A DNA stretch of 64,000 nucleotides, taken from IMG/VR virus record IMGVR_UViG_3300028025_000091, positions 64,001 to 128,000 of that record. The stretch is one strand, 5' to 3'. The translations under genes and the position numbers were made by a program. This document shows positions 1 to 51,752 of this stretch, one piece after another. The notes beneath the pieces are model-generated. The model saw only the letters and a program-made list of their open reading frames with translations, did no database searches and was not told the origin of the DNA. The stretch's first letter is position 1; the number at the start of each line of letters is the position of its first letter. Origin of the DNA: a virus.

Positions 1-1
1 T

Positions 2-1321
2 TCTGCAGATAATTACAGATGGCAAATTGTTTCTCCTGATACTAATAATGGAACTTTTACACTTGTTATCCGTCAAGGGAATGATTCAAATATTCAAAAC
101 TCTATTTTAGAAACTTGGGGTCCACTTTCATTAGATCCATATGCTTCAAACTATATTGAAAAAGTAATTGGTAATCAAATTGAAAATATAGCAATAGATA
201 ATGGTGAATACTACATCCAATTATCTGGAAGTTATCAAAACCAATCAGCTTATGTTCGTGTTAAACAAGTAAATCAAACCACACCAAATTATTTCGATAA
301 TGTAGGAAACCCTAAAAATGAATTTACTGGATCAATCCCAGTAACTCAAAGTGGTGTATTTGGAGATGCAAAAGGAAGTAATATTCCTACATTTGCTGCT
401 GGAGCGTATTATGAAAATATTTCAAATACTAATGTTCAAGGTTTAAAAGCTAATGATTATACAGAATCTATTTCTTTATTAGCAAATAAGGATGCTTTTA
501 AATATAATTTATTAATTGCTCCTGGTTTAATTGCTGACCCACAATCTTTTAATTTACATAATGCTGTAGTAAATCAAATGATTACAACAGTTCAAGAAAG
601 AGGAGATTCAATGGTAGTAACAGATGTAGTTGGATATGGATCAAATATCACCCCAGTAGTTACTAGTGCACAATCAAAAGATACTTCATATGCTGCGACA
701 TATTGGCCTTGGTTACTCACTGTAGATCCTAATACATCTAATTATGTTTGGGTTCCTACAGCTACATTAATTCCTAGAGTATATGCTCAAAACGATGCTA
801 TTGCTTATCCTTGGTTTGCACCAGCAGGTGTTAATCGTGGAATAATGACATCTGTTATTAAAACTGAAAGAGTATTAACACAAGGAAATAGAGATACATT
901 ATATAAAGCAAACATTAATCCAATCGCAAATATTGCTACAGCTGCTGGATCAGCAATATCAGTATTTGGACAAAAAACATTACAGAAAAAAACAACTGCT
1001 TTAGATCGTGTAAATGTACGTCGTTTATTAATTGAACTTAAAAATTATATATCTCAAGTAGCTGATACATTTGTATTTGAACAAAATAATGAAGCAACAA
1101 GAAATAGTTTATTATCATTAATTAATCCTTATTTATCACAAGTTCAACAACAACAAGGTTTAACATCATTCCAAGTTATAATTAATGAATCAAATAATAC
1201 ACCTACTACAGTAGATCAAAATCAATTAATAGGCCAAATTTATTTGCAACCAACTAAAACAGCTGAATTCATTATATTAGACTTTAATATATTACCTACA
1301 GGTGCAACGTTTCCTGCTTAG
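2..1321 (+). CDS. Tail sheath protein, copy 1 (5'-truncated by window edge)
   Basis: The frame of the 578 ORF reads open from base 2 (SADNYRWQIVSPDTNNGTFTLVIRQGND..., aligning with SSDNIRWEITNSNTGSGTFNVLVRRGND of the next gene). Sheath C-terminal motifs PWFAPAG.NRG, GQKTLQ, LDRVNVRRL, FEQN, QPTKTAEFI. Confidence 0.93.
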   Translation, partial: SADNYRWQIVSPDTNNGTFTLVIRQGNDSNIQNSILETWGPLSLDPYASNYIEKVIGNQIENIAIDNGEYYIQLSGSYQNQSAYVRVKQVNQTTPNYFDNVGNPKNEFTGSIPVTQSGVFGDAKGSNIPTFAAGAYYENISNTNVQGLKANDYTESISLLANKDAFKYNLLIAPGLIADPQSFNLHNAVVNQMITTVQERGDSMVVTDVVGYGSNITPVVTSAQSKDTSYAATYWPWLLTVDPNTSNYVWVPTATLIPRVYAQNDAIAYPWFAPAGVNRGIMTSVIKTERVLTQGNRDTLYKANINPIANIATAAGSAISVFGQKTLQKKTTALDRVNVRRLLIELKNYISQVADTFVFEQNNEATRNSLLSLINPYLSQVQQQQGLTSFQVIINESNNTPTTVDQNQLIGQIYLQPTKTAEFIILDFNILPTGATFPA

Positions 1322-7367: not shown

Positions 7368-9620
7368 ATGGCTGCTAAAGACGATACTGAAGGTTTAAAA
7401 AGTGCTGCAGATAAGTTAAAAGGTGACTTTGATAAGATTAATAAATCTTTAAAAGATACTAAGACTCTTCTTAATGATTCCATTTCTCCATTTGAATCTT
7501 TAGCTAAAATATCTGAACAATTCCTTTCTCATAAAACAGCCGAAAATAAATTAAGTGCTGAAGAATTAAAAAATTTAGCACTTAAAGTTAAAGCAGAACA
7601 AGATAATTTATTTCAATCCCAAAAAGCTTTAAAAGAAAGACAAAAATTTCTTAAAGAAGAATTAAAATCCAATCAACTTAATGCAAAGAGTTATAAAAGC
7701 ATTACAGAAGAAATTAAACAAAACGCTAAAGCCCAAAGTAATCTCACCAAACAAATCAATCTCACCTCAGGTGAAGTTGAAAATTTAGAAAAAAAACTTC
7801 AAAAAGCTGCAAAAACAGCAAAAACTGTAGAATTTGGAAAAAAACTCTCATCAAATCTAGATAAAATATCTACTCCTTTAGATGAGATTCTTAATCCTAT
7901 GAATCTAATTAATAAAACTATTGGATTTATTGTTAATACTGTTTTAGAGTTCGATCAAAGATTAGGTGATACTGCTAAAAGTATGAATTTAACATACAAA
8001 GAAGCAGAAGATTCTAATAGGGCAATGATTAAATTCGCTCTATCAACAGGAGATGCTTTTCTTAATTCACAAAATTTAAATAAAACCGTAGTAGATTTAA
8101 ATAAAAATTTAGGTACTTCAATAAAATTTGAACAACTTACTGGTGCTCTTAAAGAGGATGTAGCATTAATGTCCAAATTAGAAAACATGGCTGGGTTAAC
8201 CGCAGAGGAAACCCAAGGAATCCTCCAATATACTTTAGCTACTGGCCAATCAGCAACAAAAGCTACAAAAGATTTAATGGCTAACTACAAAGTAGCAGGT
8301 CTTAAACGTGGAGTTGTATTAAATGAAAAAGATGCTTTAAAAGAAATATCCAAATTATCAAATGCTATTAAATTATCCACAGCTGGAGGTGCTGCTGGAA
8401 TAGCTAAAGCAGCAGCTGCAGCAAAAGCATTAGGATCAGATTTAGGCAAAGTTGATGAGATAGCAGGCAGTATCCTTAATTTTGAAGAATCAATTGAAGC
8501 AGAATTAAGTGCAGAATTACTAACTGGTAAAGATTTAAATTTAGAAAAAGCACGTGAAGCTGCTTTAAATAATGACCTAGCAACCCTTTCAGATGAAATT
8601 GCTAAAAATGTAGGAAAAGCTGCTGACTTTAACAAAATGAATAGAATCCAACAGGATGCAATTGCAAAATCTGTTGGTATGTCTCGTGAAGAACTAGCAA
8701 CTACTTTAACTAATCAAGAATCTTTAAAAAATATTGGTGCTTCTTCTGTAGAACAAGCTCGAGAACAATATGATTTAGCGGTAGCACAGGGAAGAGAAAA
8801 AGAATTTTTAAATGAATTAGGTAACGAAGAATTAGAAAAACAATTTAAACAACAAAGTAGTCAAGAAATGTTAGTTGAATTGCAAAAACAATCAGCTGAT
8901 AAAATAATAGACACTATTGCAGGTTTTGATGAATGGAAAAAAAGAATTAAAGATATATATGATGCTTTTATGAAAGTATTTGACAAGTTTGGTGGATTTA
9001 AAACACTTATAGCTTCTATAGGTACTATTATGGCATTTAAAATTATTTCATCTTTGGGTAGAGCAGTAGTATTAGGTGCAGCTCAATTAGCATCTGCAGT
9101 AGCTTATACTAGAGAAATACGAAAACAACAAGCTCTAAAAACTGGAGAAATTAATAAAGAAGTAGCATTAACAGCCGCTAAAGTTGCGGGTGCTGAAGCC
9201 TCTACTTTAGGAGCAGCAACAGTTACAATCCTTGCAGGGATTGGTGCTGTTATGGCATTAGTTGGAAGCCTTACAATGATGAATGATGGTGTCATAGGCC
9301 CTTCAGGTGGAAGTGGTCATGGAAATAGAGTAATGTTCGGTCCTGAAGGTGCAATTTCATTCAACAATAAAGATACTATTGTAGCTGGAACTGATTTATT
9401 TAAAGCAGATGATATGGTATCTGCTCCTAAAGGTGCAGTTCAAATTTCAAACAATAGCTCATCTAAAGAAATAGCTGAATTAAGAAGCGCAATAATGGCC
9501 CTAGCAACTCGACCAGTTGATGTAGCAATTGATGGAACTAAAGTAATTGAAGCTACAACAGGTATGAATCCTAACACACAAGGATTAGAATCTGCTAAAA
9601 ATAGTTTTAAAATGCAATAA
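7368..9620 (+). CDS. Tape measure protein
   Basis: 750 aa, Ala/Lys/Glu-rich helical; LNFEESIEAELSAELLTGKDLNLEKAR; position between chaperone and baseplate genes. Confidence 0.8.
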   Translation: MAAKDDTEGLKSAADKLKGDFDKINKSLKDTKTLLNDSISPFESLAKISEQFLSHKTAENKLSAEELKNLALKVKAEQDNLFQSQKALKERQKFLKEELKSNQLNAKSYKSITEEIKQNAKAQSNLTKQINLTSGEVENLEKKLQKAAKTAKTVEFGKKLSSNLDKISTPLDEILNPMNLINKTIGFIVNTVLEFDQRLGDTAKSMNLTYKEAEDSNRAMIKFALSTGDAFLNSQNLNKTVVDLNKNLGTSIKFEQLTGALKEDVALMSKLENMAGLTAEETQGILQYTLATGQSATKATKDLMANYKVAGLKRGVVLNEKDALKEISKLSNAIKLSTAGGAAGIAKAAAAAKALGSDLGKVDEIAGSILNFEESIEAELSAELLTGKDLNLEKAREAALNNDLATLSDEIAKNVGKAADFNKMNRIQQDAIAKSVGMSREELATTLTNQESLKNIGASSVEQAREQYDLAVAQGREKEFLNELGNEELEKQFKQQSSQEMLVELQKQSADKIIDTIAGFDEWKKRIKDIYDAFMKVFDKFGGFKTLIASIGTIMAFKIISSLGRAVVLGAAQLASAVAYTREIRKQQALKTGEINKEVALTAAKVAGAEASTLGAATVTILAGIGAVMALVGSLTMMNDGVIGPSGGSGHGNRVMFGPEGAISFNNKDTIVAGTDLFKADDMVSAPKGAVQISNNSSSKEIAELRSAIMALATRPVDVAIDGTKVIEATTGMNPNTQGLESAKNSFKMQ

Positions 9621-10310: not shown

Positions 10311-12455
10311 ATGGGACTTTACCAAATACTTACAGCTCCACAAAATTTTAAATTTTACGCGGAAAAATCTTTTCCGAATGCTAATGCTGTATCTACTGCT
10401 AATTTTTTTGGGCAAAAAAGTATTGGATATGGAGACTCTAACCAACCATATGTTAAAATCCCATTTGCTGGCTCAGGCACATCTTTTTCTAAATTAAATG
10501 AACCATCAAAAGATTTTCCATGGTTTTTAAATGAATTTGGGAATCTTCCTTTAAATTTTATTAGTGGTATAGGAGGTCAACTTATAAATGGATTTGATTT
10601 AACATCTAGTAGCCCATTAAGATATAATTCACGATCTTGGGGCCCTGATTTTTTAACTAGAGGAAACGGTTTTGGATTTATTAGAACATCAGATGATGTA
10701 TTACGATTAACGAAATATTTTACTGATGATAGAAGTGTTAACGGAAACCTTTTTATAGCTAAACAGAATATTCTTTCAAGAGTTTCTCCAAAAACAGAAG
10801 CATCATATGGTCTTTCTTATGGGTTGGGTGCTTTAAATGGAGGTGTCTATACTCCTCTTTCAACCCTAGCACAAGCTGGAATAAGCCTAATAGAAGGACA
10901 TGTATACAAACAAGGACTTGATCCATTTAATACTATCCCAGGATCGGGTATAAGAACATACCAACAAGCTCTTATCCCTCAACTTGTTGGAGGTATTTTT
11001 CCTAGTAAAAACCGCTTAATTAAATTAAGTAGATTATCATATGCAACTGAAAGTGAAGTTGTCGCTTTAAATATAGAATCTCCTTACAATGTATCATCTA
11101 ATACAAATTATTTTATTTCTTACGGAGGAGGGCCAGATTCATTTTTAGGAATAGGAAAAACTAAACTTAAATACGCTACAGATAATACGGGTGAAGTTCC
11201 TCTCCGTACTCTTTCTCAAAAGGGGCCATATTCGTTTAATAATACTTATTGGTCTAGCACATACACTTCAAATCCATTAACATGGGATAGAAAAGATTTA
11301 GCCCAAGCAACTTCATCTATATATGATGAATCACCAATAGTAACGGAAGATTTTAGAAAACAATTATTAGATACTTCTACTATTGGTCAACAAACATTTC
11401 TTAGCTTATCCCCTAGTTATAAAATAGAAGCTCTTAATACAGGTAATATTGAAAAAAGAACTAATTTTAGAGGAGCGGGGGCTAGAGGAAACTTAAGAAA
11501 TTTTCAAGCAGGTAAAAAAAGCGTTAATGCTGGAAAAGTCTTAGGCCCTACTGATCTTATCAATGCTTTTCCTATATATCAAGGAACAACACCATCCAAT
11601 AATGATTTATTAAAGGATATGGTTGATTTTCGTATAGGGATTTATGATAATGATACTATTGGATTAGGTGGTACTATTAAACTTAACTGGATGCACTTTA
11701 GGGTTCTTTTAGATGATTTTTCTGATTCATATGGTGCTGATTGGAAAGCAATAAGTTATATGGGTAGAGCAGAAAATTTCTATAAATATGATTCATTTAA
11801 AAGAGATATTTCAATTTCATTTACTGTAGCAGCCCAATCAAAACAAGAATTATTACCAATATATAAAAAATTAAATTATTTAGCTTCTTCATTAGCACCT
11901 AGTTACTCGGCAAATGGATTTATTCGTGGAAATTTATCCCAAATTACTTTAGGTAATTGGTTATTTGAACAACCTGGATTCATCAGCTCAGTAGATTTAT
12001 CTATTCCTGATGATTCCCCTTGGGAAATTAATTTACCATTGGATGGAAAAACTGATGAACAAGTTAAACAAGTGCCCCATATGGTTAATGTAAAAATTAA
12101 ATTTACTCCAATCCATAAATTTAGACCTGAAATTAATAAATTATCAAACCTTCAAGACGCATCTACATTCTCTGAAAACAATATCCTATACAAAAATCCA
12201 ACATATGGACCTCAAAGATACATTGCCCTTTTGGATAATGAATCTAATGCATACGATACCCCATTAATTGACCCAGCTCAACTAAACCAACAAAATAATC
12301 CAGGTGCAGGTCAATCAAATACTCAACAAAACCAAATACCTTATGGTCCACTCAACTACTTAGAATCACTACCTCCCTCTATAGTTGATTTTTCAACAAC
12401 ACCAGAAATCCCACTCCCACAAAATCAATTCACAAATCCTAATTTTCCATATTAA
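10311..12455 (+). CDS. Baseplate / tube-initiator protein
   Basis: C-terminal tube-like domain FSDSYGADW..ISYMGRAE.FY.Y..F.R.IS.SF, KKLNYLAS, ITLG, PGFISS. Confidence 0.65.
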   Translation: MGLYQILTAPQNFKFYAEKSFPNANAVSTANFFGQKSIGYGDSNQPYVKIPFAGSGTSFSKLNEPSKDFPWFLNEFGNLPLNFISGIGGQLINGFDLTSSSPLRYNSRSWGPDFLTRGNGFGFIRTSDDVLRLTKYFTDDRSVNGNLFIAKQNILSRVSPKTEASYGLSYGLGALNGGVYTPLSTLAQAGISLIEGHVYKQGLDPFNTIPGSGIRTYQQALIPQLVGGIFPSKNRLIKLSRLSYATESEVVALNIESPYNVSSNTNYFISYGGGPDSFLGIGKTKLKYATDNTGEVPLRTLSQKGPYSFNNTYWSSTYTSNPLTWDRKDLAQATSSIYDESPIVTEDFRKQLLDTSTIGQQTFLSLSPSYKIEALNTGNIEKRTNFRGAGARGNLRNFQAGKKSVNAGKVLGPTDLINAFPIYQGTTPSNNDLLKDMVDFRIGIYDNDTIGLGGTIKLNWMHFRVLLDDFSDSYGADWKAISYMGRAENFYKYDSFKRDISISFTVAAQSKQELLPIYKKLNYLASSLAPSYSANGFIRGNLSQITLGNWLFEQPGFISSVDLSIPDDSPWEINLPLDGKTDEQVKQVPHMVNVKIKFTPIHKFRPEINKLSNLQDASTFSENNILYKNPTYGPQRYIALLDNESNAYDTPLIDPAQLNQQNNPGAGQSNTQQNQIPYGPLNYLESLPPSIVDFSTTPEIPLPQNQFTNPNFPY

Positions 12456-12472
12456 CAATAAATTTTTAATTT

Positions 12473-12784
12473 ATGAATCGATATAATGTAGCTCAAGTAG
12501 TTAAAACTGTAGAAGATCCAAGAAGAAGATATACAAATATAAAGTATCCTTCAATTTTGCCATCTTCTGCTGATATTTATATATATACGGGTCAAGGAGA
12601 TAGATATGATACTTTGGCTTTAACATATTATAGTGATACTACGTTATGGTGGGTTATTAGTAGATCAAATCCTTCCCAACCAAACGATACATTATATCCG
12701 AATGTTGGAGCTCAAATTAGAATACCTGCCTCTTCTAGAATCCCACAATTAATATCTGCATTCCAGAATTTAAATAGTATTTAA
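12473..12784 (+). CDS. LysM-like baseplate wedge protein (gp53/gpX-like)
   Basis: GDRYDTLA..YY.D.TLWWVI..SN...G.QIRIP. Confidence 0.75.
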   Translation: MNRYNVAQVVKTVEDPRRRYTNIKYPSILPSSADIYIYTGQGDRYDTLALTYYSDTTLWWVISRSNPSQPNDTLYPNVGAQIRIPASSRIPQLISAFQNLNSI

Positions 12785-12797
12785 AATTTAAAAAGTT

Positions 12798-15467
12798 ATG
12801 GCATTAATAGGAGAACCAATCCCTCAATACGTTCAAAATCAAATACAAGTTCGACAAGCTTCTTATGGTAGTGGTAGTCTTCCTGGTTTCCCAAGAACTG
12901 AGGAAATTTTACTCCACCAAAATTCCAATAATGCCTTTATTAAAATGGCATCTGGAGTTTCAATTTCAGCTGAGAAATTATCAGGATCAATGAATAGTTT
13001 AGGTTTTGGTGCTTTTGAAGTAGAAGCATTACAGGGGATGGGACTTGCTAAAAACTATGTTTTATTTGGTGGAACTGCTCAAATGGGAACATCCCCATCA
13101 GGTGAGGGAGTTCTTCAACAAAAGACTAATTTTTTAGGAAATCAAGGAGCATATGAAGCTACACCTAATTTCGGAATAGTTCCAATGCCAGGCATAGATA
13201 GTTTAGAAGTAAAATCACTAAATAGAGGATCATTAAAAAAAGCAACAGTAAAATTGACTGCCCAAACTAGAGATCAACTTGCTATTCTAGATGTTTTATA
13301 TATGCGTTTAGGATATACTGTTTTAATTGAATGGGGTAATTCTATTTATATGGCTTCTTCTGAACGGGAAACAAAAGATGGAAAAATTGAAGAAGGAAGA
13401 TTACAACAAATGTATACCTCTATTATAGAAAATAATTCTTTATTTTTTAATGCATCTTGGGAAAAGGGTAAGTCATATCTTGATCTTACAGAACAAATAG
13501 CTAAAGCTAGAAAAAATTATGATGGTAATTTTGATGCTTTACTAGGTAAAGTTTCAAATTTTAATTGGACATTTAACCCCGATGGATCATATACTATAGA
13601 ACTTACTGTTATCAGTTTGGGTGATGTAGTTGAATCTTTAAAAACTAACATTGCCGCTTCATATCAAACGTTAGCATATGTTGATACAAATGACCTTACT
13701 TGGGCTACTGAAGGTGAACCTATTGATACCTATAGAAAAGATAACATTATTCTTTCCATGCTCCATGTATTTAGACTACAAAATCTATCCCCTACAGGAG
13801 ACCCTATTACTATATATACTAAAAAAGGTGATGATTCTCTTCAAAAAAATGCTAAACTTGGAAATTTATTAGTTACAGGACCTCCTAGTATTAGTGGAAG
13901 TGATCATTATATAACTGAAACATTATATGTAGGATTTCAAGATAATGGAAAATGGATAGAACCTGGTGATTTAACAAATGAAGCCTATTGGGCCCCGGAT
14001 GGTCGAGAATTATCACAAGCTGAAGCCCAAACTCGAGCTAATGGTATTGCCGATAATGTTTTAGGTGGTAAATTAGAAGATTATAAAGGATATGGATATA
14101 AAGTAGTTGAAAGACCACTAAGTAGTGCTGTTGGTAGTGTTGGTATGACTGCAGGATCATATGCAAATTTCGCAACTTTAGTCTTTAAATACAAACGTGC
14201 CTTTCAAATATACACAGAAACATCCCCCAAATTTTCAGACGCTGCTTGGCTCCCATATATTGAGGTCCCTGCAGCTAGTAGAATGTCAGACCCTAAACTT
14301 GATACTAATCCTGTTGTTTTATACAGAAAAAACTTTGTAACTGAATACTCAGGTTACACATATGATGCTAAGAAAAAAGTCCCAGCAGCATCACTTGAGT
14401 ACATCACCCCATCAGCCCTCCTCTCCCCCTTATTTATCCAGGGTAATCCTTCTGCTATAGCTTCTGTTAAAGCAGGGACAAATGTCATTAAAGTTACTGA
14501 AGGTATTGATTCCAAAGAATCTTCCGTAAGTAGAGGATCTTTCAAAAATCCTTTAACAGGAACAGGATATGAAAAACAAGATGCTTTTGTAATAAAATTA
14601 GATAAACCCCAATATTATGTAAGATTTGGATATTTATTAAGTTTACTTAAACAAAAGGTTATTACTCGTATCAAAACTAATGATACCTCATATGAAAAAT
14701 ACCCAAACTTATTTGATATAAACACCTCTAATAATCAAAAAATGTTATGTTTACCCCTTCAAATATCTTTTGATTGGAGAACATGTATAGTAAAACGAGA
14801 AAATTTTTATAGAGATTCATGGAAACAAAATATTTTTAAAGAATTAGCAGACTGGGTGGATGGTAGTAATACCGCAAATATTATGAATATTTATTTGAAT
14901 TTTAATTTTCTTGCAAATTCTATGTCTTCTAATATGGATGAGCGAGGGAATGTCTCAGTATATGATTTTATTAAAGCGATATGTGATGGTATTAATAAAG
15001 CCATGGCCGGTGTAAACAACCTAGAACCTATTATAGATGAAGACACGAACACATTAAGTATTTTTGAATCATCCCCTATCCCTAAAGATTCCCCCGACCC
15101 AGGATATCATCTTCAACTTTATGGTTATGGAAATGGCGTTACTAGTCCGGCAGGAAATTCAACATTTGTTAGAAAAGTTGATTTAAAAACAGCAATCACC
15201 CCAGAATACGCTACAATGATTACTGTTGGAGCAACCGCTAATGGATACGTTAAAGGAGTAGAAGCAACAGCATTTGCTAGATGGAATGATGGATTAACAG
15301 ACAGATTCAAATCAGAACTTGTAGCAGCCGATAAAGATACTAACGACGATACCAAGGGAACTCGTGAGGATACCATTAATAGTTTTTTCCAAGCTATGAG
15401 TTGGAATGCTAAATGTTTTGGAATAGAAGGAGGAGGTAACCTCTGGGATATGTTCCCTAATCCGTAA
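12798..15467 (+). CDS. Baseplate hub protein (gp27/VgrG-like), N-terminal part
   Basis: PMPGI.S..V....RGSLKKATV, LYMRLGYTVLIEWG, GNFDALLGKVSNFNWTFN.DGSY.I.L..IS.GDV; ends in TAA TAA, in frame with 15474. Confidence 0.65.
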   Translation: MALIGEPIPQYVQNQIQVRQASYGSGSLPGFPRTEEILLHQNSNNAFIKMASGVSISAEKLSGSMNSLGFGAFEVEALQGMGLAKNYVLFGGTAQMGTSPSGEGVLQQKTNFLGNQGAYEATPNFGIVPMPGIDSLEVKSLNRGSLKKATVKLTAQTRDQLAILDVLYMRLGYTVLIEWGNSIYMASSERETKDGKIEEGRLQQMYTSIIENNSLFFNASWEKGKSYLDLTEQIAKARKNYDGNFDALLGKVSNFNWTFNPDGSYTIELTVISLGDVVESLKTNIAASYQTLAYVDTNDLTWATEGEPIDTYRKDNIILSMLHVFRLQNLSPTGDPITIYTKKGDDSLQKNAKLGNLLVTGPPSISGSDHYITETLYVGFQDNGKWIEPGDLTNEAYWAPDGRELSQAEAQTRANGIADNVLGGKLEDYKGYGYKVVERPLSSAVGSVGMTAGSYANFATLVFKYKRAFQIYTETSPKFSDAAWLPYIEVPAASRMSDPKLDTNPVVLYRKNFVTEYSGYTYDAKKKVPAASLEYITPSALLSPLFIQGNPSAIASVKAGTNVIKVTEGIDSKESSVSRGSFKNPLTGTGYEKQDAFVIKLDKPQYYVRFGYLLSLLKQKVITRIKTNDTSYEKYPNLFDINTSNNQKMLCLPLQISFDWRTCIVKRENFYRDSWKQNIFKELADWVDGSNTANIMNIYLNFNFLANSMSSNMDERGNVSVYDFIKAICDGINKAMAGVNNLEPIIDEDTNTLSIFESSPIPKDSPDPGYHLQLYGYGNGVTSPAGNSTFVRKVDLKTAITPEYATMITVGATANGYVKGVEATAFARWNDGLTDRFKSELVAADKDTNDDTKGTREDTINSFFQAMSWNAKCFGIEGGGNLWDMFPNP

Positions 15468-15473
15468 TAAGTT

Positions 15474-16454
15474 ATGCCTAGTAGTTTCGTAGATTCAAGA
15501 ATAAACCAAAATTTAGAAGTAGCAACCGAATACTTTAGGGCTCTAGTATCCGAAAAAACCACTAATACTCTAAACAAAGTAAATAAATCCGCGGGTTCTA
15601 TAGGTTTTATTCCTTACAATGTATCATTCACTATGGATGGTATTAGCGGAATTAAAATTTATAACGAACTATCTTTAGATACAAGTTTTTTACCTCCTGG
15701 TTATTCCGAAGTTACTAATTTTATAGTAACGGGAGTAGATCATAAAATACAAAACGGTGATTGGGAAACTAATATAAATGTAACTCTTATTCCTAGAACT
15801 GATCCTATAGATAATGTCATTACAAGTAGTCTTACTATCTTTGGCCAAATTGAAACCGCTCCTCCTACCCCAACAACCCCAACAGGTCCAGGCAGTGGAA
15901 CAACAATTGTAGCTAGTAAATCATTAAAAGAAGTCCTTATAGCAGCAGGATATCCTACAGGTACATTCAAACATGAATTTGCACTTGTTATAGGTACTAA
16001 AGAGGGCTATGTAAAAGGTTCATCCAATAGGCCATCAAGAAATAACAACCCAGGTAATCTAGCAGGTGCAGATTTTAAAGACATAGACCCAGGTGTAGTA
16101 ATAGAACCACCAAATGCAAAAGGTGAACAAAAATTCGCTAAATTTACAACTCCAGAACTGGGTGCTAAAGCTTTGGTTGAGAGAAAGATTAAAACATGGG
16201 GGAATGGTGGATATCCACCAACACAGGTAAATGGAAAAGATACAACATACCAAAATAAATGGGGTGTACCTGCATCTACAAGAGATATTCAAGGAGACAA
16301 TGTTAAATTAACCATAGAACAATTTATGTATATATATGCCCCACCAAACCAAAATAACACTGAAGGATATATAAATTCAGTAATTAATGCTTTAAAAGGA
16401 AAATACCCAACAATAACAAGAACTTCAAGAATAATCGATTTTATAAATTTATAA
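15474..16454 (+). CDS. Hub C-terminal cassette 1: shared N-domain + lysozyme-like 'RNNNPGN' domain
   Basis: Shared MPSSFVDSRINQNLEVATEYF...TGVDHKIQNGDWET; C-terminal RNNNPGNL...FAKF.TPE.G..AL...YAPP.QNNT..YI. Confidence 0.7.
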   Translation: MPSSFVDSRINQNLEVATEYFRALVSEKTTNTLNKVNKSAGSIGFIPYNVSFTMDGISGIKIYNELSLDTSFLPPGYSEVTNFIVTGVDHKIQNGDWETNINVTLIPRTDPIDNVITSSLTIFGQIETAPPTPTTPTGPGSGTTIVASKSLKEVLIAAGYPTGTFKHEFALVIGTKEGYVKGSSNRPSRNNNPGNLAGADFKDIDPGVVIEPPNAKGEQKFAKFTTPELGAKALVERKIKTWGNGGYPPTQVNGKDTTYQNKWGVPASTRDIQGDNVKLTIEQFMYIYAPPNQNNTEGYINSVINALKGKYPTITRTSRIIDFINL

Positions 16455-16488
16455 TATATTACTTAAAACTTAAATATTTACCCCAATC

Positions 16489-17559
16489 ATGCCTAGTAGC
16501 TTTGTAGATTCAAGAATAAACCAAAACCTAGAAGTAGCAACAGAATACTTCAAGGCTCTTGTGTCTAAAAGGACCTATGATGCAGACAATAAATTGAATA
16601 CCGCTGCTGGGTCTTTAGGTTTTATTCCTTTTAACATGAATTTTACTATGGATGGAATAAGCGGTATTAAAATCTATAATAAATTATCCGTTGATACAAG
16701 TTTTTTACCTCCTGGATACACCAATACAATGGAATTTATAGTAACGGGAGTAGATCATAAAATACAAAACGGAGACTGGGAGACAAATATTAAAACTACT
16801 TTTATTCCAAAAACAGGTAAAATAGACAATTACATAACAAGTAGTCTTACCATCTTTGGTCAAGTTGAACAAGCACCCACTAATACACCCCCATCAGACC
16901 CAGGTGTAGTTTCAGGTACAGTCACAGATAATGATCTTTGGATATATTTAACTTGGCAACAAGGTGAGGGTGGTGCTGCAGAACATTATAAAATTGCTAA
17001 AGGAACTAGAGCTTCCTATAGTCTTGTTACAAAAGCAGCTATTAAAAACAACTGGCCTGGTAGTTTAGTAGCCTCTAATGGAGTTAAAAAATCAGATATT
17101 GATTCTTTATACACATCAAATCCTCAAAAATTATCTCAAGGTTTTATAGATGTTTGGAAAACACAATATAAATCAAGAACATCAACGGCCCCATCAAAGA
17201 TAGATAGTGCTGGATCAAATGAAGTTGGCCTTCCATACTCTACTATAAAAGCAGCATTCATTACCGCCGCTGATCCTTCAAATGGAATAGGATATTCAAA
17301 TCTTGTCAATTTTGCATATATAGAAAATTCTTTCCAAAATGATTCCGAAACTTCAAATCTATACCAAGGTATGTTCCAAATGAATAAAACTACTCCTAAA
17401 TATAAAGCAGTATTAGATAAATATAACGATGGTAAAGGACGTAATTCATCATATACTAAATATGGAACCTCAGATTTTACAGGTTTTATGAAAGATATAG
17501 TTCCATTAATAATCTCAAAATTTAAATCATTTAAAACCGCATCAGGTTACCCCAATTAA
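16489..17559 (+). CDS. Hub C-terminal cassette 2: shared N-domain + SLT-like transglycosylase
   Basis: Same N-domain; C-terminal YLTWQQGEGGA and FAYIENSF...YQGMFQM. Confidence 0.65.
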   Translation: MPSSFVDSRINQNLEVATEYFKALVSKRTYDADNKLNTAAGSLGFIPFNMNFTMDGISGIKIYNKLSVDTSFLPPGYTNTMEFIVTGVDHKIQNGDWETNIKTTFIPKTGKIDNYITSSLTIFGQVEQAPTNTPPSDPGVVSGTVTDNDLWIYLTWQQGEGGAAEHYKIAKGTRASYSLVTKAAIKNNWPGSLVASNGVKKSDIDSLYTSNPQKLSQGFIDVWKTQYKSRTSTAPSKIDSAGSNEVGLPYSTIKAAFITAADPSNGIGYSNLVNFAYIENSFQNDSETSNLYQGMFQMNKTTPKYKAVLDKYNDGKGRNSSYTKYGTSDFTGFMKDIVPLIISKFKSFKTASGYPN

Positions 17560-17570
17560 TAAAACTTTAT

Positions 17571-18488
17571 ATGCCTAGTAGCTTTGTAGATTCAAGAATA
17601 AACCAAAACCTAGAAGTAGCAACAGAATACTTCAAGGCTCTTGTGTCTGAGAAGACTTATGATATTAATAATAAATTAAATAAATCAGCGGGTTCTATAG
17701 GTTTCATCCCCTTTAATATTAATTTTACTATGGATGGAATAAGTGGTATTCAAATTTATAATCAATTATCTATTGATACAAGTTTTTTACCCCCTGGGTA
17801 TACTGATACTCTGGATTTCATAGTAACAGGGGTAGATCATAAAGTACAAAACGGAGATTGGGAAACAAATGTAAAAGTAACCCTTATCCCTAGCACCAAT
17901 CAGATAGACAATTCTATAACAAGTAGTCTTACTATCTTTGGTCAAGTTGAACAAGCACCTGCTACCCCATCATCAGGACCAACAGTAACAGCAACAGGGG
18001 CATGGAGGATTTGGAATAAAGGTATATTCATTACATCCCCATATGAATTAAATATCCACCATTCTGGTCCTGGTCAGGTTTTTGAAATAGATCCTTCAAA
18101 TACTAGAAGTGGAAAATGGTCAAAAAATTCTGTTGGAAAATACATTTATGATGTTTGCTTATTTAGAAACGAAGGTGGAATTGAACAAAATAGACCATTT
18201 GTTCCTTCCCCAACAAATGGAACTGTAATAAGTACATCCCCTGATTCTGGTGGAAATTCATTTTTCACTATCAAGGGAGATGATGGATTAATATATGATT
18301 TTCTTCATATGGATAATTATCAAGTAGGTGTAGGTGATAAAGTAACCAAAGGTCAATTAATTGCAAGACAAAGTGATGTCATGCAAGTAAGACCAGGATA
18401 CCCAAAAGCAAATCACTTACATATGCAGATGCCAACAAAACAAGCACTAATAGATTATATTAATAGTTTATTAAATAATAGTTTCTAA
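17571..18488 (+). CDS. Hub C-terminal cassette 3: shared N-domain + M23 peptidase-like domain
   Basis: Same N-domain; C-terminal VPSPTNGTV, GN...I, FLHM...VGVGDKVTKGQLIA, NHLH. Confidence 0.75.
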   Translation: MPSSFVDSRINQNLEVATEYFKALVSEKTYDINNKLNKSAGSIGFIPFNINFTMDGISGIQIYNQLSIDTSFLPPGYTDTLDFIVTGVDHKVQNGDWETNVKVTLIPSTNQIDNSITSSLTIFGQVEQAPATPSSGPTVTATGAWRIWNKGIFITSPYELNIHHSGPGQVFEIDPSNTRSGKWSKNSVGKYIYDVCLFRNEGGIEQNRPFVPSPTNGTVISTSPDSGGNSFFTIKGDDGLIYDFLHMDNYQVGVGDKVTKGQLIARQSDVMQVRPGYPKANHLHMQMPTKQALIDYINSLLNNSF

Positions 18489-18499
18489 TAGTTATAATC

Positions 18500-19141
18500 A
18501 TGGCATATTATCCAAAATCCCAAGTCAAAACTAATTTATATACCAATGGTAATGAATATGCTCTTAGTACCACACAACAAGAGTATACAGGATATTATTA
18601 TAAAACATCAAGTGGAAAACTATATACAGGAAAAAATCCACAAACAAACCCCACAATCCTTTTACAAATAATTACTCCTACATTAGATGATGTCCCTTCT
18701 AATGACTCTCTACAACCCCAATCATCTATTAATCCCATACCAAGATCATCTAATAATATACAAATAGTTAATAATTCCCCATCATCAATTGACTATCGCC
18801 CAGGAAATGCTGTAGACCGTGTTATCCCACAATTTAATGTAACCCTACCAACTGCTTCAGATAAACAAAGAGGATTCCTTATTCGCTATTTCTGCAAAAA
18901 GAATAATGAACTAATCTACTTTGAAACTTCCCAAGCAGACTATGATAGAATTAAAAGCCAAGACCCATCAACCGCATATGATTTATATTCAGTTGCTGCA
19001 CTTAAATGGTATATAACTGGAATTACCACTCAAGTTGCTAATCAAAATATATCCCAAGTCAACCAAACATCAGCGGCAAACGGATGGTTAGGTTTTATTC
19101 AATATTTCCAAGGAGACTTTACTAAATACTTGGGAACTTAA
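18500..19141 (+). CDS. Hypothetical baseplate-region protein
   Basis: 213-aa ORF closing the tail operon; YTNGNEY, YTGYYY, YTGKNP motifs. Confidence 0.6.
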   Translation: MAYYPKSQVKTNLYTNGNEYALSTTQQEYTGYYYKTSSGKLYTGKNPQTNPTILLQIITPTLDDVPSNDSLQPQSSINPIPRSSNNIQIVNNSPSSIDYRPGNAVDRVIPQFNVTLPTASDKQRGFLIRYFCKKNNELIYFETSQADYDRIKSQDPSTAYDLYSVAALKWYITGITTQVANQNISQVNQTSAANGWLGFIQYFQGDFTKYLGT

Positions 19142-19158
19142 TATATAGTTTGTATCTT
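19130..19158 (+). promoter_or_regulatory. Class I promoter TTGG-N19-TATCTT upstream of polA
   Basis: TTGG at 19130, TATCTT at 19153. Confidence 0.6.
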
Positions 19159-19164
19159 CAAAGC

Positions 19165-20415
19165 ATGTATTGGCTCATAGAAGATATTGAACATATAGAA
19201 ACAATTTGTCGCATTAAGCACCAAGAGGCTTATGTAGACATTATTCCATGTTCACATACACTTCACCCTGTTGAAAACGAAGTATGTGCTATATATATTA
19301 GACCAAAAAATGATACAAAAGGATACATCATTGCTATAAACCATAGCGAAACAATAAACTTTGATTTAGAGGTAGTAGAAAGAGTATTAAACAGTATTGA
19401 AAATATTTATGTAAGGGATAGAAAAGAATTTTTACATTACTTCCCAATCAAGCACTGTTACCAACCATCACCCTCCCCCCATACGTATATACCTCAATTA
19501 ACACAAGCCCACACTCAGTTATATCATAGGTACCCACAAGTACAAAATCTAAACACAATTGTACCGATCGTAAAACACTATGAGGTATGTGAACAAAACT
19601 TTGCAAACTACGACAAAACAAACCTAAATCCGTTTTACAATAAGGCGGCATTAGTGTTTAATCAACTCGAACGAGCGGGTATAAAAGTGGATCAAATCAA
19701 ATTCGAGCAGTACTTCGACAAAGAAGCAAACGAGTTTATATACACGCAATATAATTTAAATACATTAACCACAAGACCTTCAAACGCATTTGGAGGCATT
19801 AACTTTTCAGCTTTAGATAAAAACAATGGAGAAAGAGAATGTTTCATACCGCGCAACAATTCGTTTATTGAAATGGATATTAGTGCTTACCATCCTACCC
19901 TTCTTGCTAATTTACTTGATTACACTTTCGATAGCAGTGATATCCATGGTAGTTTTGCTAAAATGTATGGAGTGGATTACGCCAAAGCAAAAGAGATCAC
20001 GTTTAAACAAATTTATGGTGGAATTTGGAAAGAGTATAGGGAACTTCCCTTCTTTAGAAAAGTAACAGCATATACGGACGATTTGTGGGATACATTCAAT
20101 TATGGGGGACACATCAAATGCCCAATTTCAGATCATAAGTTTTATAGCAAAGAACTGGAAAACATGAATCCACAAAAACTTTTGAATTATGTACTCCAAA
20201 ACTTGGAGACCGCAAATAATGTTTGTATACTATACGATATTTTTAAAATATTACGAGGGAAAAATACTAAACTCGTGTTGTATGTGTATGATTCGTTTTT
20301 ATTTGATTACGATAATAGTGAACCGGATGTAATGCTTAAAATATTAGGAATATTTAACAAATACAATTTACAAATAAAAACCAAAAAAGGCACAAACTAC
20401 GCCAATATAAAATAA
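19165..20415 (+). CDS. polA: Family A DNA polymerase (compact)
   Basis: T.RPS..F..INF; motif A EMDISAYHP; motif B KAKEITFKQIYG; LNYVLQ; motif C LYVYDSFLFD. ATG at 19165 preferred over TTG at 19150. Confidence 0.85.
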   Translation: MYWLIEDIEHIETICRIKHQEAYVDIIPCSHTLHPVENEVCAIYIRPKNDTKGYIIAINHSETINFDLEVVERVLNSIENIYVRDRKEFLHYFPIKHCYQPSPSPHTYIPQLTQAHTQLYHRYPQVQNLNTIVPIVKHYEVCEQNFANYDKTNLNPFYNKAALVFNQLERAGIKVDQIKFEQYFDKEANEFIYTQYNLNTLTTRPSNAFGGINFSALDKNNGERECFIPRNNSFIEMDISAYHPTLLANLLDYTFDSSDIHGSFAKMYGVDYAKAKEITFKQIYGGIWKEYRELPFFRKVTAYTDDLWDTFNYGGHIKCPISDHKFYSKELENMNPQKLLNYVLQNLETANNVCILYDIFKILRGKNTKLVLYVYDSFLFDYDNSEPDVMLKILGIFNKYNLQIKTKKGTNYANIK

Positions 20416-50920: not shown

Positions 50921-51244
50921 ATGAAAATCGAGAGAGAAAAAGTTATGAATTTGTTAAAGCCGGCTATGAACCTTATTATTGTAGCAGCTGTTGGAACAGC
51001 TATGTTCCGTTTAGGAATTGCTTATCAATCACATGAAAGCAAAGAAAATATCAAAGTAGATAACCCATATGCACACGCATTTTCCCCTGAGGAAATTTCA
51101 ATCGCAGTTAACGAATCAAACGAGTTGATCATGATTGAACGTTCAACTGGAAAATACATTGTATATTCAGATCAAATTGGCCAAACCATCTTTGGAATGT
51201 ATGCCAATCGTATTCACCAAGAGGTAACTAATGTTAGTAAATAG
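50921..51244 (+). CDS. Membrane-anchored hypothetical protein
   Basis: One N-terminal TM segment; overlaps the SLT gene. Confidence 0.6.
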   Translation: MKIEREKVMNLLKPAMNLIIVAAVGTAMFRLGIAYQSHESKENIKVDNPYAHAFSPEEISIAVNESNELIMIERSTGKYIVYSDQIGQTIFGMYANRIHQEVTNVSK

Positions 51245-51752
51245 TATCAAAATCGGTATTGTAGCGGGGGCAGTTATTGCCACCGCTCTTACTGTTACTG
51301 AACCGGAAGTTCAAGCAACTCAAGACGTGCGCATTCCGGACAGTATCGATCAAAGTTCACCCCCATGTCTGCAGATGTATGAGTACATTAAAGCATACGC
51401 TGATACGTTTGATATTCCATTAAATTATGCATTTGGAATAGCATATTGTGAAACAAGATATGAAGGTCCATTTCAGTGGAAATATAACCCTGCCCAAACC
51501 TCCCCTACAGGTGCTGAAGGACCAATGCAAATTTTGCTTTCAACAGCACGTTACTTAAACAAAGATAAAGTTTCACGTGAACGTTTACGTACTGACATTG
51601 GGTATAACGTGAAAACTTCAATGGGTTATTTAAGACGTTTATACAATCGTTACAAAAGTTGGCCAATTGTGTTTGGATACTACAATACAGGTTACCCTAG
51701 AGTAAATGATTATGCAAGAAAAGTTGTAAATTTTAAAATGAATTGGATATGA
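51231..51752 (+). CDS. Lytic transglycosylase (SLT) with N-terminal anchor
   Basis: IAYCET, SPTGA.GPMQI...TA, YL..L, YYNTG. Confidence 0.85.
   Translation: MLVNSIKIGIVAGAVIATALTVTEPEVQATQDVRIPDSIDQSSPPCLQMYEYIKAYADTFDIPLNYAFGIAYCETRYEGPFQWKYNPAQTSPTGAEGPMQILLSTARYLNKDKVSRERLRTDIGYNVKTSMGYLRRLYNRYKSWPIVFGYYNTGYPRVNDYARKVVNFKMNWI

What the first reader, a model, noticed from the sequence alone, without database searches (positions are those of the whole stretch)
12798..18488. Split baseplate hub with three interchangeable C-terminal cassettes, each with a different putative wall hydrolase
Seen: the hub gene ends in TAA TAA GTT, and the next ATG (15474) is in the same frame, as expected from gene fission. 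Three tandem ORFs then share a ~125-aa N-domain (MPSSFVDSRINQNLEVATEYF...F.VTGVDHK.QNGDWET, resembling the last beta-barrel of gp27/gpD-type hubs) and a Pro/Thr linker. Their C-terminal domains are unrelated: lysozyme-like RNNNPGN, SLT-like and M23-like. Established: gp27/VgrG hubs are trimers, and evolved VgrGs and Rhs orphans carry swappable C-termini. Inference: either one hub trimer is completed by three different subunits, delivering three wall-cleaving chemistries at once, or virions are polymorphic and cassettes swap by recombination.
Basis: partly seen in the sequence, partly recalled or inferred. Interest (0 to 1): 0.85.

Follow-up and report, generated by a model that had tools for sequence, protein, structure and literature searches.

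The report
Split tail hub, swappable lysin cassettes
In this 174-kb contractile-tailed phage the central tail hub gene has been cut in two, and the cut-off piece, probably the last part of the hub fold, now heads three neighbouring genes that each carry a different cell-wall-cutting enzyme, so one virion can probably mount a mix of enzymes that related phages exchange by recombination.

Summary
The 889-aa gene (12798..15467) ends TAA TAA GTT, and an in-frame ATG follows at 15474. Three tandem genes share a ~130-aa N-domain (76-80% aa identity) and a Pro/Thr linker, and their C-domains are unrelated to each other.

- **Fission:** about 3,300 relatives exist. Most are single fused proteins (hub, then this N-domain, then one lysin) and align colinearly across the break.
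- **Fold:** an AlphaFold model of the stop-read-through hub plus N-domain (pLDDT 82) matches about 45 gp27/gpD/VgrG/T5-pb3 hubs (Z 9-11.7). Those alignments end inside the N-domain, so the cassettes appear to supply the end of the hub fold in trans.
- **Array size:** split relatives with complete flanks carry 2 or 3 cassettes, never 1 or 4. Fused relatives carry exactly one N-domain.
- **Payloads:** at least 17 types (M23, VanY, M15, SleB, PF18013, GH19, SLT-like and others). Where it can be typed, the last cassette is usually a peptidase.
- **Exchange:** phages 97-99% identical in the flanks differ in payload, and N-domain trees follow phage lineage, not payload.

A strict one-of-each trimer is unlikely; three equivalent sites filled from 2-3 paralogues is the best reading. 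Virion incorporation is untested. First readers of this scan had already noted this same stretch in an overlapping window. I found no paper describing it.

The parts
7368..9620 (+). Tape measure protein (context: start of the conserved distal-tail gene block)
   Evidence: 30% identical to the annotated tape measure of Flavobacterium phage immuto and syntenic with it. Tail sheath and tube genes lie upstream.
10311..12455 (+). Conserved 714-aa distal-tail protein of unknown role (context)
   Evidence: Syntenic in all relatives and in immuto (36% over 217 aa). No family hit.
12473..12784 (+). 103-aa small baseplate protein just before the hub
   Evidence: PHROG 7145 'baseplate wedge subunit' 5.6e-11 and PHROG 46 'baseplate hub' 1e-3; weak, sub-threshold Pfam Phage_tail_X. 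Syntenic in every relative.
12798..15467 (+). Hub body, 889 aa: a gp27/gpD/T5-pb3-like baseplate hub that lacks the end of its fold
   Evidence: AF2 model of hub plus N-domain has pLDDT 82.2 and pTM 0.78. Foldseek top hits are T5 pb3 (E 1.3e-5), diffocin and AlgoCIS hubs, VgrG, Mu gp44 and T4 gp27. VIA gives Z 9-11.7 to about 45 hubs. 3338 cluster representatives match at E<=1e-3.
15465..15476 (+). Fission junction: TAA TAA GTT ATG, with the hub stop and the cassette-1 start in the same frame
   Evidence: In fused relatives this point is a variable loop between conserved blocks. All 24 distinct junctions examined end in TAA, with gaps of 3-22 nt.
15474..15851 (+). Cassette 1 N-domain (aa 1-126): hub-completing module
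   Evidence: Homologous to residues ~745-895 of fused hub-lysins (E down to 1e-46). In the fused model its strands have pLDDT 80-96, and the hub alignments end here.
15852..16454 (+). Cassette 1 Pro/Thr linker and payload: a virion-lysin-type domain with RNNNPGN (16038-16058) and APPNQNNT (16338-16361) motifs
   Evidence: PHROG 7182 'tail injection transglycosylase' 2.1e-12, and PHROG 873 and 2276. Weak motif match to the N-terminus of PDB 9vvp_L Gp29. No Pfam or NCBIfam hit.
16489..16866 (+). Cassette 2 N-domain
   Evidence: 77% aa identity to the cassette 1 N-domain. Its DNA is 97% identical to the N-domain of cassette 3 (an M23 cassette) of relative L009.
16867..17559 (+). Cassette 2 linker and payload: probable SLT-like lytic transglycosylase (IENSF at 17320-17334, YQGMFQM at 17362-17382)
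   Evidence: ESM-Atlas structure match TM 0.69/0.64 over 179 residues to a PF01464 cluster. No sequence-level support. The family is small, 19 proteins.
17571..17948 (+). Cassette 3 N-domain
   Evidence: 80% aa identity to the cassette 1 N-domain. Its first ~75 nt are identical to cassette 2.
17949..18488 (+). Cassette 3 linker and payload: Peptidase_M23 (Pfam match aa 211-293, about 18201-18449; HLH at 18414-18422)
   Evidence: PF01551 at 9.8e-10, 39 bits against a cut-off of 28.7. PHROG metallo-endopeptidase and endolysin families.
18500..19141 (+). Conserved 213-aa protein that always follows the array (unknown role, probably tail-associated)
   Evidence: Syntenic in all split and fused relatives examined, with a weak match in immuto. 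No family hit.

Best explanation
This is a central baseplate hub-lysin (of the gp27/gpD/T5-pb3/Tal kind) that underwent gene fission just before the last segment of the hub fold.

Shown:
- The ancestral and still commonest form is one polypeptide: hub body, then a ~130-aa terminal hub segment, then a linker, then one peptidoglycan hydrolase.
- In this phage's clade the body (889 aa) is a separate protein.
- The terminal segment has been duplicated and heads 2-3 tandem genes, each with a different payload. Here these are an RNNNPGN-type virion lysin, a probable SLT-like transglycosylase and an M23 peptidase.
- Payloads, and sometimes whole cassettes, are exchanged between related phages by recombination. 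The breakpoints seen lie at the N-domain/linker boundary and at cassette starts, and one lies inside a payload.

Inferred:
- The hub is a trimer, and each body subunit needs one N-domain in trans to complete its second tube-like domain. That gives three equivalent docking sites per virion.
- The co-transcribed cassette proteins compete for these sites, so most virions carry a mixture of payloads tethered under the hub by flexible linkers.
- After sheath contraction the hub reaches the periplasm, and glycan-cutting and peptide-cutting enzymes act together to open the sacculus for the tube.
For: Fission:
- Flavobacterium phage immuto has the same gene order, but one 938-aa ORF matches both the hub and the N-domain.
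- 113 of the 137 newly listed 50%-identity cluster representatives carry the N-domain internally, with a median of ~220 residues after it. Many matches run through the break in one stretch, and the alignment is colinear across it.
- Split hubs fall in one clade of 24 tips on a 154-row hub tree; only 2 state changes are needed.

The N-domain is part of the hub fold:
- The AF2 model has pLDDT 82.
- About 45 hub structures align over 240-380 residues at Z 9-11.7, from model residue ~45 to ~1000, while their own chains run to the end of the gp27-like module.
- Folded alone, the N-domain has lower confidence (pLDDT 71) and no fold match.
- In T5 pb3, hub domains HDI and HDIV are the two tube-like domains forming the ring, and HDIV is the C-terminal one (read in 10.1101/2022.09.20.507954).

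All three copies look functional:
- Each has its own ATG. The gaps are 6, 34 and 11 nt, with no + strand terminator-like site between the cassettes.
- All three keep the 11 invariant family residues.

Array rules:
- Fused loci have exactly 1 N-domain. Complete split loci have 2 or 3.
- The genome holds only these 3 copies.

Payloads and exchange:
- At least 17 payload clusters, including M23, VanY, M15_4, Hydrolase_2, PF18013 and GH19.
- L011 and L015 are 96.8% and 98.8% identical in the flanks but differ in the cassette 1 payload and carry unrelated cassette 2 payloads.
- The window and L009 are 92.5% identical up to the end of the cassette 1 N-domain, then unrelated.
- The N-domain tree follows phage lineage and position, not payload.

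A separate 173-aa SLT protein with a signal-anchor-like N-terminus (51231..51752) is a candidate endolysin, so the cassettes need not serve lysis.
Against: - There is no direct evidence that any cassette protein is in the virion, or that more than one type is.
- The structural argument rests on a monomer model of an artificial read-through fusion, guided by an alignment of naturally fused homologues. The tools gave only first and last aligned residues, with no contacts and no multimer model.
- The isolated N-domain gives no hub-like match.
- The c2 payload assignment is structural and weak.
- An N-terminal HxxxD zinc motif was not located in the c3 M23 domain by eye.
- One fused protein (P0242) sits inside the split clade, so either two fissions or one re-fusion is needed.
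Confidence: 0.7

Rival explanations
1. Only one cassette, for example the first, is built into the hub. The others are spare 'orphan' modules kept as recombination substrates, as with Rhs or VgrG orphans, or they are soluble lysins used at lysis.
For: Payload exchange by recombination is real. The hub stop and the cassette 1 start are tightly coupled, with a 6-nt gap. Expression was not tested.
Against: Every copy has a full-length N-domain with its own ATG and all family-invariant residues, unlike truncated orphans. N-domains are kept 70-97% identical under many synonymous changes (26-37 synonymous against 22-28 non-synonymous codon differences). There is no + strand terminator-like site between the cassettes. 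Arrays typically pair glycan-cutting payloads with a terminal peptidase, which suggests joint use. A separate SLT endolysin candidate exists.
Confidence: 0.13
2. There is an obligatory heterotrimer: each hub trimer takes exactly one copy of each of the three cassettes, delivering three chemistries in fixed 1:1:1 stoichiometry.
For: There are three cassettes here and in several relatives, and three sites in a trimer.
Against: About half of the complete arrays have only two cassettes (L004-L008, L013, L016, L017, L019, L031, L038-L040, L046). The three sites of a C3 hub are equivalent. N-domains of one phage are close paralogues, with no sign of position-specific interfaces.
Confidence: 0.07
3. 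The hub and cassette 1 are still made as one protein by stop-codon read-through or recoding, so the 'fission' is only apparent.
For: The hub and cassette 1 are in frame here and at 15 of 24 distinct junctions.
Against: Here the two frames are separated by two consecutive TAA codons. Every junction examined uses TAA. 9 of 24 junctions are out of frame, and several in-frame ones contain two stops. Each cassette 1 starts with the same conserved ATG-led motif (MPSSF or MPHF) as the downstream cassettes, which cannot be fused.
Confidence: 0.03

Closest known systems
Hub-lysin fusions: tail-associated lysins (Tal) of siphophages and myophages (e.g. lactococcal Tal with an M23 domain, Staphylococcus phi812 and NF5 tail-associated lysins, PDB 9euf_E and 9m7n_A)
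   Same: A gp27-like hub module with a peptidoglycan hydrolase tethered to its C-terminus, encoded after the tape measure. The fused relatives of this protein have exactly this layout.
   Different: Here the polypeptide is cut inside the hub module. The lysin-bearing fragment carries the end of the hub fold and exists in 2-3 paralogous versions with different payloads.
T4 gp27-gp5 cell-puncturing device
   Same: A trimeric hub plus a separate protein that brings a lysozyme domain to the tail tip (structural match to gp27, 1k28_D, Z 10.5).
   Different: From general knowledge, gp5 docks through its own OB-fold and beta-helix below an intact gp27. Here the carrier supplies a piece of the hub itself. 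No OB-fold or beta-helix spike was seen, and there are several alternative carriers.
Rhodobacter capsulatus GTA baseplate hub, split into Hub (gp13) and Megatron (gp15)
   Same: A precedent for a hub fold distributed over two polypeptides (described in 10.1101/2022.09.20.507954, read).
   Different: The split point differs: HDI versus HDII-IV. There is no duplication of the fragment and no lysin payload array.
Evolved VgrG, PAAR and Rhs proteins with orphan C-terminal cassettes (polymorphic toxin logic)
   Same: A conserved N-terminal structural or adaptor part, a hypervariable C-terminal enzyme, tandem alternative cassettes, and exchange by recombination at the conserved part. VgrG shares the hub fold (Z ~9-9.6).
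   Different: All cassettes here are complete genes with starts. No immunity genes lie between them. The payloads are mostly peptidoglycan hydrolases acting for phage entry, not interbacterial toxins.
Multi-tailspike phages with shared N-terminal anchor domains (e.g. CBA120 TSP1-4, G7C gp63.1/gp66; from general knowledge, not tested here)
   Same: Several enzymes with different specificities mounted on one virion through conserved N-terminal docking modules.
   Different: Those dock on the baseplate periphery through adaptor domains and target surface polysaccharides. Here the docking module is an integral piece of the central hub fold, and the enzymes target the wall.

Membership tests
gp27/gpD-type baseplate hub (BHP; includes T5 pb3, Mu gp44, VgrG N-module) | Four-domain hub fold with two tail-tube-like domains | tested here: met
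   AF2 model of hub plus N-domain: VIA Z 9-11.7, rmsd 3.2-5, 240-380 aligned residues to about 45 hub structures. Foldseek gives T5 pb3 at E 1.3e-5. The match is met only when the cassette N-domain is included, because the alignments end at model residue ~1000.
gp27/gpD-type baseplate hub (BHP) | Encoded in the distal-tail block after the tape measure, next to a small gpX-like baseplate protein | tested here: met
   Gene order is sheath, tube, chaperone-like, tape measure..., 103-aa PHROG 7145/46 protein, hub. The order is the same in immuto.
gp27/gpD-type baseplate hub (BHP) | Forms a trimer at the tail tip | not testable with these tools
   No multimer prediction or experiment was available.
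Tail-associated lysin (hub-lysin fusion) | Hub module and peptidoglycan hydrolase on one polypeptide | tested here: not met
   Here the body and the lysin carriers are separate ORFs divided by TAA TAA. The feature is met in the fused relatives.
Peptidase_M23 (cassette 3 payload) | Pfam PF01551 match above the gathering score | tested here: met
   39 bits against a cut-off of 28.7, aa 211-293.
Peptidase_M23 (cassette 3 payload) | Zinc-ligand motifs HxxxD and HxH | tested here: inconclusive
   HLH is present at aa 282-284. The profile match starts at position 16 of 96, and I could not place an HxxxD motif by eye.
SLT / GH23 lytic transglycosylase (cassette 2 payload) | Sequence-profile match to PF01464 | tested here: not met
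   No Pfam, PHROG, NCBIfam or PDB-profile hit. hhalign against the phage's own SLT protein gives probability 0.1.
SLT / GH23 lytic transglycosylase (cassette 2 payload) | Lysozyme-like fold with a catalytic Glu-Ser-type motif followed by a G-L-M-Q-type motif | tested here: inconclusive
   Atlas model TM 0.69/0.64 over 179 residues to a 100% SLT cluster. IENSF and YQGMFQM are present in the canonical order. I made no model of this domain myself.
Virion 'tail injection transglycosylase' domain, PHROG 7182 (cassette 1 payload) | Profile match | tested here: met
   E 2.1e-12 over aa 184-306; also PHROG 873 and 2276. The chemistry of this family is not established by anything I tested.
Polymorphic toxin / Rhs-VgrG orphan cassette systems | Cognate immunity gene after each variable C-terminal module | tested here: not met
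   The gaps between cassettes are 34 and 11 nt, and no ORF is interposed.
T4 gp5-type spike-lysozyme | N-terminal OB-fold and C-terminal beta-helix flanking the lysozyme | tested here: inconclusive
   The cassettes consist of N-domain, linker and one enzyme domain. No repeat or beta-helix region was seen in the sequences, and the N-domain model (one helix plus three or four strands) gave no OB-fold hit. The payloads were not modelled.

The most novel reading that the evidence does not exclude
The hub is a combinatorial machine. A common body is completed in trans by whichever of 2-3 paralogous 'last hub segment plus payload' proteins arrive, so a single burst yields mosaic virions with different enzyme sets. 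The conserved segment doubles as a recombination handle that lets the phage population trade payloads. This would be a phage-entry counterpart of polymorphic toxin systems. Some payloads may not be wall hydrolases at all: there are weak, sub-threshold hints of phosphatase-like and GDSL-lipase-like domains, and one DUF2272 domain just above its Pfam cut-off.
Probability: 0.35. Interest if true: 0.8.

Novelty: new variant of a known kind. Interest (0 to 1): 0.64.

Why it matters
Hub-tethered lysins are known, but always as one enzyme set fixed on a homotrimeric protein. Here the hub fold itself appears to be divided, so that interchangeable enzyme carriers become structural subunits. If so, virions would be heteromeric at their very tip, and wall-breaching chemistry could evolve without touching the rest of the tail.

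The design is common. The hub family has thousands of cluster representatives, mostly from freshwater and marine metagenomes. I retrieved dozens of distinct split arrays, with a regular layout of 2-3 cassettes and a peptidase usually last.

It offers three things. First, a natural docking module for engineering phage tails with chosen lysins. Second, a large catalogue of at least 17 payload families, many unannotated, that are probably virion-associated wall enzymes. Third, a clean system for studying how gene fission followed by duplication creates subunit heterogeneity in a symmetric machine.

Tried and rejected
- **Isolated N-domain:** folded with an 88-sequence alignment it gave pLDDT 71 and pTM 0.46. 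Neither an all-PDB representative scan nor a re-alignment of Foldseek's top 1000 chains gave any Z>=5 (best 4.8, unrelated proteins). Its identity as a hub segment therefore could not be confirmed on its own.
- **Sequence libraries:** Pfam, PHROGs and NCBIfam give nothing for the 889-aa hub, the 714-aa protein or the 213-aa protein.
- **Cassette 2 payload:** a PDB sequence-profile search found only a chance hit. hhalign against the phage's own SLT was not significant. A profile search of 5.8 billion proteins found only 19 members, none with a Pfam label.
- **Cassette 1 payload:** the Atlas feature search returned only unnamed viral clusters.
- **Read-through or recoding of the hub stop:** rejected. 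All junctions use TAA, this one has a double stop, and 9 of 24 junctions are out of frame.
- **Promoter and terminator scan of 12300-19300:** nothing above the shuffled expectation, and no + strand terminator-like site. This is uninformative for a Bacteroidota-type host.
- **Literature:** searches for split hubs or tandem hub-lysin cassettes found nothing relevant.

Full report
**What is there.** The window is bases 64001-128000 of a 173,789-bp virus record that CheckV rates as complete. The tail module reads: two sheath-like genes, tube, chaperone-like gene, tape measure (7368..9620), two small genes, a 714-aa protein, a 103-aa small baseplate protein (PHROG 7145/46), then the 889-aa ORF 12798..15467. 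That ORF ends TAA TAA GTT, and the next ATG (15474) is in the same frame. Three tandem ORFs of 326, 356 and 305 aa follow, with gaps of 6, 34 and 11 nt. Their first ~130 residues are 76-80% identical, with the first 21 aa identical. The DNA repeat starts exactly at each ATG. A Pro/Thr/Gly linker follows each N-domain, and then C-domains that share no detectable similarity. The genome holds exactly these three copies.

**The split is a real gene fission.**
- The only cultured relatives, the Flavobacterium myophages of the immuto group, have the same gene order. In them one 938-aa ORF matches both the hub (residues 1-868) and, further along, the cassette N-domain.
- I read the window's two TAA codons through as Gly to get a 1022-aa query (P0241). 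phmmer over 1.84 billion cluster representatives found 3338 relatives at E<=1e-3, and many matched stretches run straight through the break.
- Of the 137 newly listed representatives, 113 carry the N-domain internally at about residues 745-900, followed by a median of ~220 residues. The Pfam families seen there include PF18013, PF00959, PF00182 and PF13539.
- A multiple alignment is colinear across the junction, and the break falls in a variable loop between conserved blocks.
- On a 154-row hub tree the 23 split hubs need only two state changes. They lie in one clade of 24 tips that also contains one fused marine protein, P0242 (1693 aa, with no extra cassettes at its locus). This means one fission plus a re-fusion, or two fissions.

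**What the N-domain is.**
- AlphaFold2 on P0241 with 70 homologues gave pLDDT 82.2 and pTM 0.78. The N-domain strands have pLDDT 80-96.
- Foldseek ranks T5 pb3 first (E 1.3e-5), followed by diffocin, AlgoCIS and PVC hubs, VgrG, Mu gp44 and T4 gp27.
- VIA-align gives Z 9-11.7 to about 45 such hubs. In nearly every row the model range runs from ~45 to ~996-1008, while the chain range runs to the end of the gp27-like module (for example 8eon_E 1..287 of 287, 6u5h_A 1..325, 1wru 3..338). The known hub fold therefore ends inside the cassette N-domain (model residues 893-1005).
- The T5 tail-tip paper states that hub domains HDI and HDIV are the two tail-tube-like domains forming the ring that continues the tube, with HDIII grown from a loop of the second one. 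It also notes that the RcGTA hub is naturally split into two proteins (10.1101/2022.09.20.507954).
- I therefore read the N-domain as the terminal segment of the second tube-like domain.
- Consistent with a non-autonomous fragment, the N-domain folded alone is less confident (pLDDT 71, pTM 0.46) and matches nothing (best Z 4.8).
- Limits: the tools returned only alignment end-points, with no contacts and no multimer model.

**Payloads.**
- Cassette 3 is a Pfam-significant M23 peptidase with HLH present; I did not locate an HxxxD motif.
- Cassette 1 matches PHROG 7182 'tail injection transglycosylase' (2e-12) and lysin domains embedded in tape measures and head proteins. Its RNNNPGN and APP-x-NNT motifs align weakly to PDB 9vvp_L.
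- Cassette 2 has no sequence-level family. The Atlas model of this very protein matches an all-SLT cluster at TM 0.69, and the IENSF and YQGMFQM motifs are in canonical order. That makes it a probable SLT, not a proven one.
- A separate 173-aa SLT protein with a signal-anchor-like N-terminus lies at 51231..51752 and is a candidate endolysin. The array need not serve lysis.

**Comparative anatomy of the array.**
- I gathered loci from IMG/VR, by exact-protein look-ups and from one metagenome scan.
- Every fused locus has exactly one N-domain and no free cassettes. Every split locus with complete flanks has two or three cassettes; none has one or four.
- Among 120 cassette proteins (representatives of 90%-identity clusters) the payloads fall into at least 17 BLAST clusters: Hydrolase_2/SleB 18, VanY 16, M23 16, PF18013 14, the c2 type 11, the c1 type 8, M15_4, GH19 and several unnamed ones.
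- Where a family can be named, the last cassette is usually a peptidase (M23, VanY or M15_4). Those upstream that can be named are mostly glycan-cleaving types, though several remain unnamed and L003 has VanY in second place.
- This regularity, together with the two-cassette arrays, argues for joint use of complementary chemistries but against a fixed one-of-each trimer.

**Exchange by recombination.**
- L011 and L015 come from the same sample. They are 96.8% identical through the hub and about 550 nt into cassette 1, and 98.8% identical from the start of cassette 3 onward. Between those points the rest of the cassette 1 payload diverges and the cassette 2 payloads are unrelated.
- The window and L009 are 92.5% identical up to the end of the cassette 1 N-domain (window 15885), then unrelated.
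- The window's cassette 2 N-domain is 97% identical to the N-domain of L009's M23 cassette, and the window's cassette 1 N-domain is 93.6% identical to that of an L009 cassette with a different payload.
- In the N-domain DNA tree, copies group by phage lineage and array position, not by payload.
- Within this phage, cassettes 2 and 3 are identical over their first ~75 nt.
- Most breakpoints seen therefore lie at the N-domain/linker boundary or at a cassette start (one lies inside a payload), and the paralogous N-domains evolve in concert or stay matched to their own hub.

**Mechanism proposed.**
- Shown: fission, duplication, payload diversity and payload exchange.
- Supported by model and homology: the N-domain is the terminal part of the hub fold.
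- Inferred: three equivalent docking sites per trimeric hub, competitive and hence mixed occupancy by 2-3 co-expressed cassette proteins, and combined glycan and peptide cleavage at the penetration site after contraction.
- Read-through fusion is rejected. All 24 distinct junctions use TAA, this one has a double stop, and 9 of 24 are out of frame. The excess of in-frame junctions (15 of 24) fits a relic of fission by a nonsense change.

**Novelty.** I found no paper describing a hub split at this point or tandem hub-completing lysin cassettes. The components are known kinds: a gp27-like hub, tail-associated lysins and, in RcGTA, a split hub. I therefore class this as a new variant of a known kind. 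Other first-reader notes of this scan cover the same stretch in an overlapping window (e1-5660747, e1-5660748, e1-5660749).

Noticed in passing
L103:3471-7433 (158-kb metagenome contig): An independent second way of splitting the same hub. A 498-aa protein has hub residues 1-286 (45% identical to the window hub) followed by a Hydrolase_2/SleB domain (27.4 bits, cut-off 27). An 810-aa protein then holds the hub C-terminal half, the N-domain and a further ~200-aa payload. About ten other cluster representatives of 550-810 aa start at the same point (query ~580).
   Followed up: partly
window 51231-51752 (+): A free-standing 173-aa SLT-domain protein (PF01464, 43 bits) with a hydrophobic, signal-anchor-like N-terminus. 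It is a candidate (SAR-type?) endolysin, separate from the hub cassettes.
   Followed up: partly
window 2-1321 and 1368-3086 (+): Two adjacent ORFs both match tail sheath PHROGs (phrog_23 and phrog_10581, E 1e-51 to 1e-70). This looks like tandem sheath paralogues or a sheath gene plus a sheath-like duplicate.
   Followed up: no
L037:1158-2198, P0120, L082:3364-4398: Some cassette payloads in relatives may not be classical wall hydrolases. There are weak, sub-threshold hits to dual-specificity/polymorphic-toxin phosphatase domains (E 2e-4) and to GDSL lipase (E 0.02), and one DUF2272 domain just above its Pfam cut-off (29.1 against 27).
   Followed up: partly
L100:6001-11082 (P0242, marine TARA contigs): A 1693-aa fused hub-N-domain-payload protein nests within the otherwise split clade, and its locus has no extra cassettes. 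This is either a re-fusion or evidence for two separate fissions.
   Followed up: partly
window 18500-19141 and homologues (e.g. L004 9961-10275 versus L005): The conserved 213-aa gene after the array has a 5' third that diverges together with the last cassette between otherwise ~86%-identical phages. The exchanged segment may therefore extend into it.
   Followed up: no
window 13800-14560 (hub residues ~335-590): The middle third of the hub is a lineage-specific insertion. It is absent or unalignable in immuto and in the fused relatives, where hub bodies are ~750 aa, yet it is confidently modelled as beta-rich domains. It may be a plug or a receptor-contacting region, like the T5 pb3 HDII insertion.
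   Followed up: no
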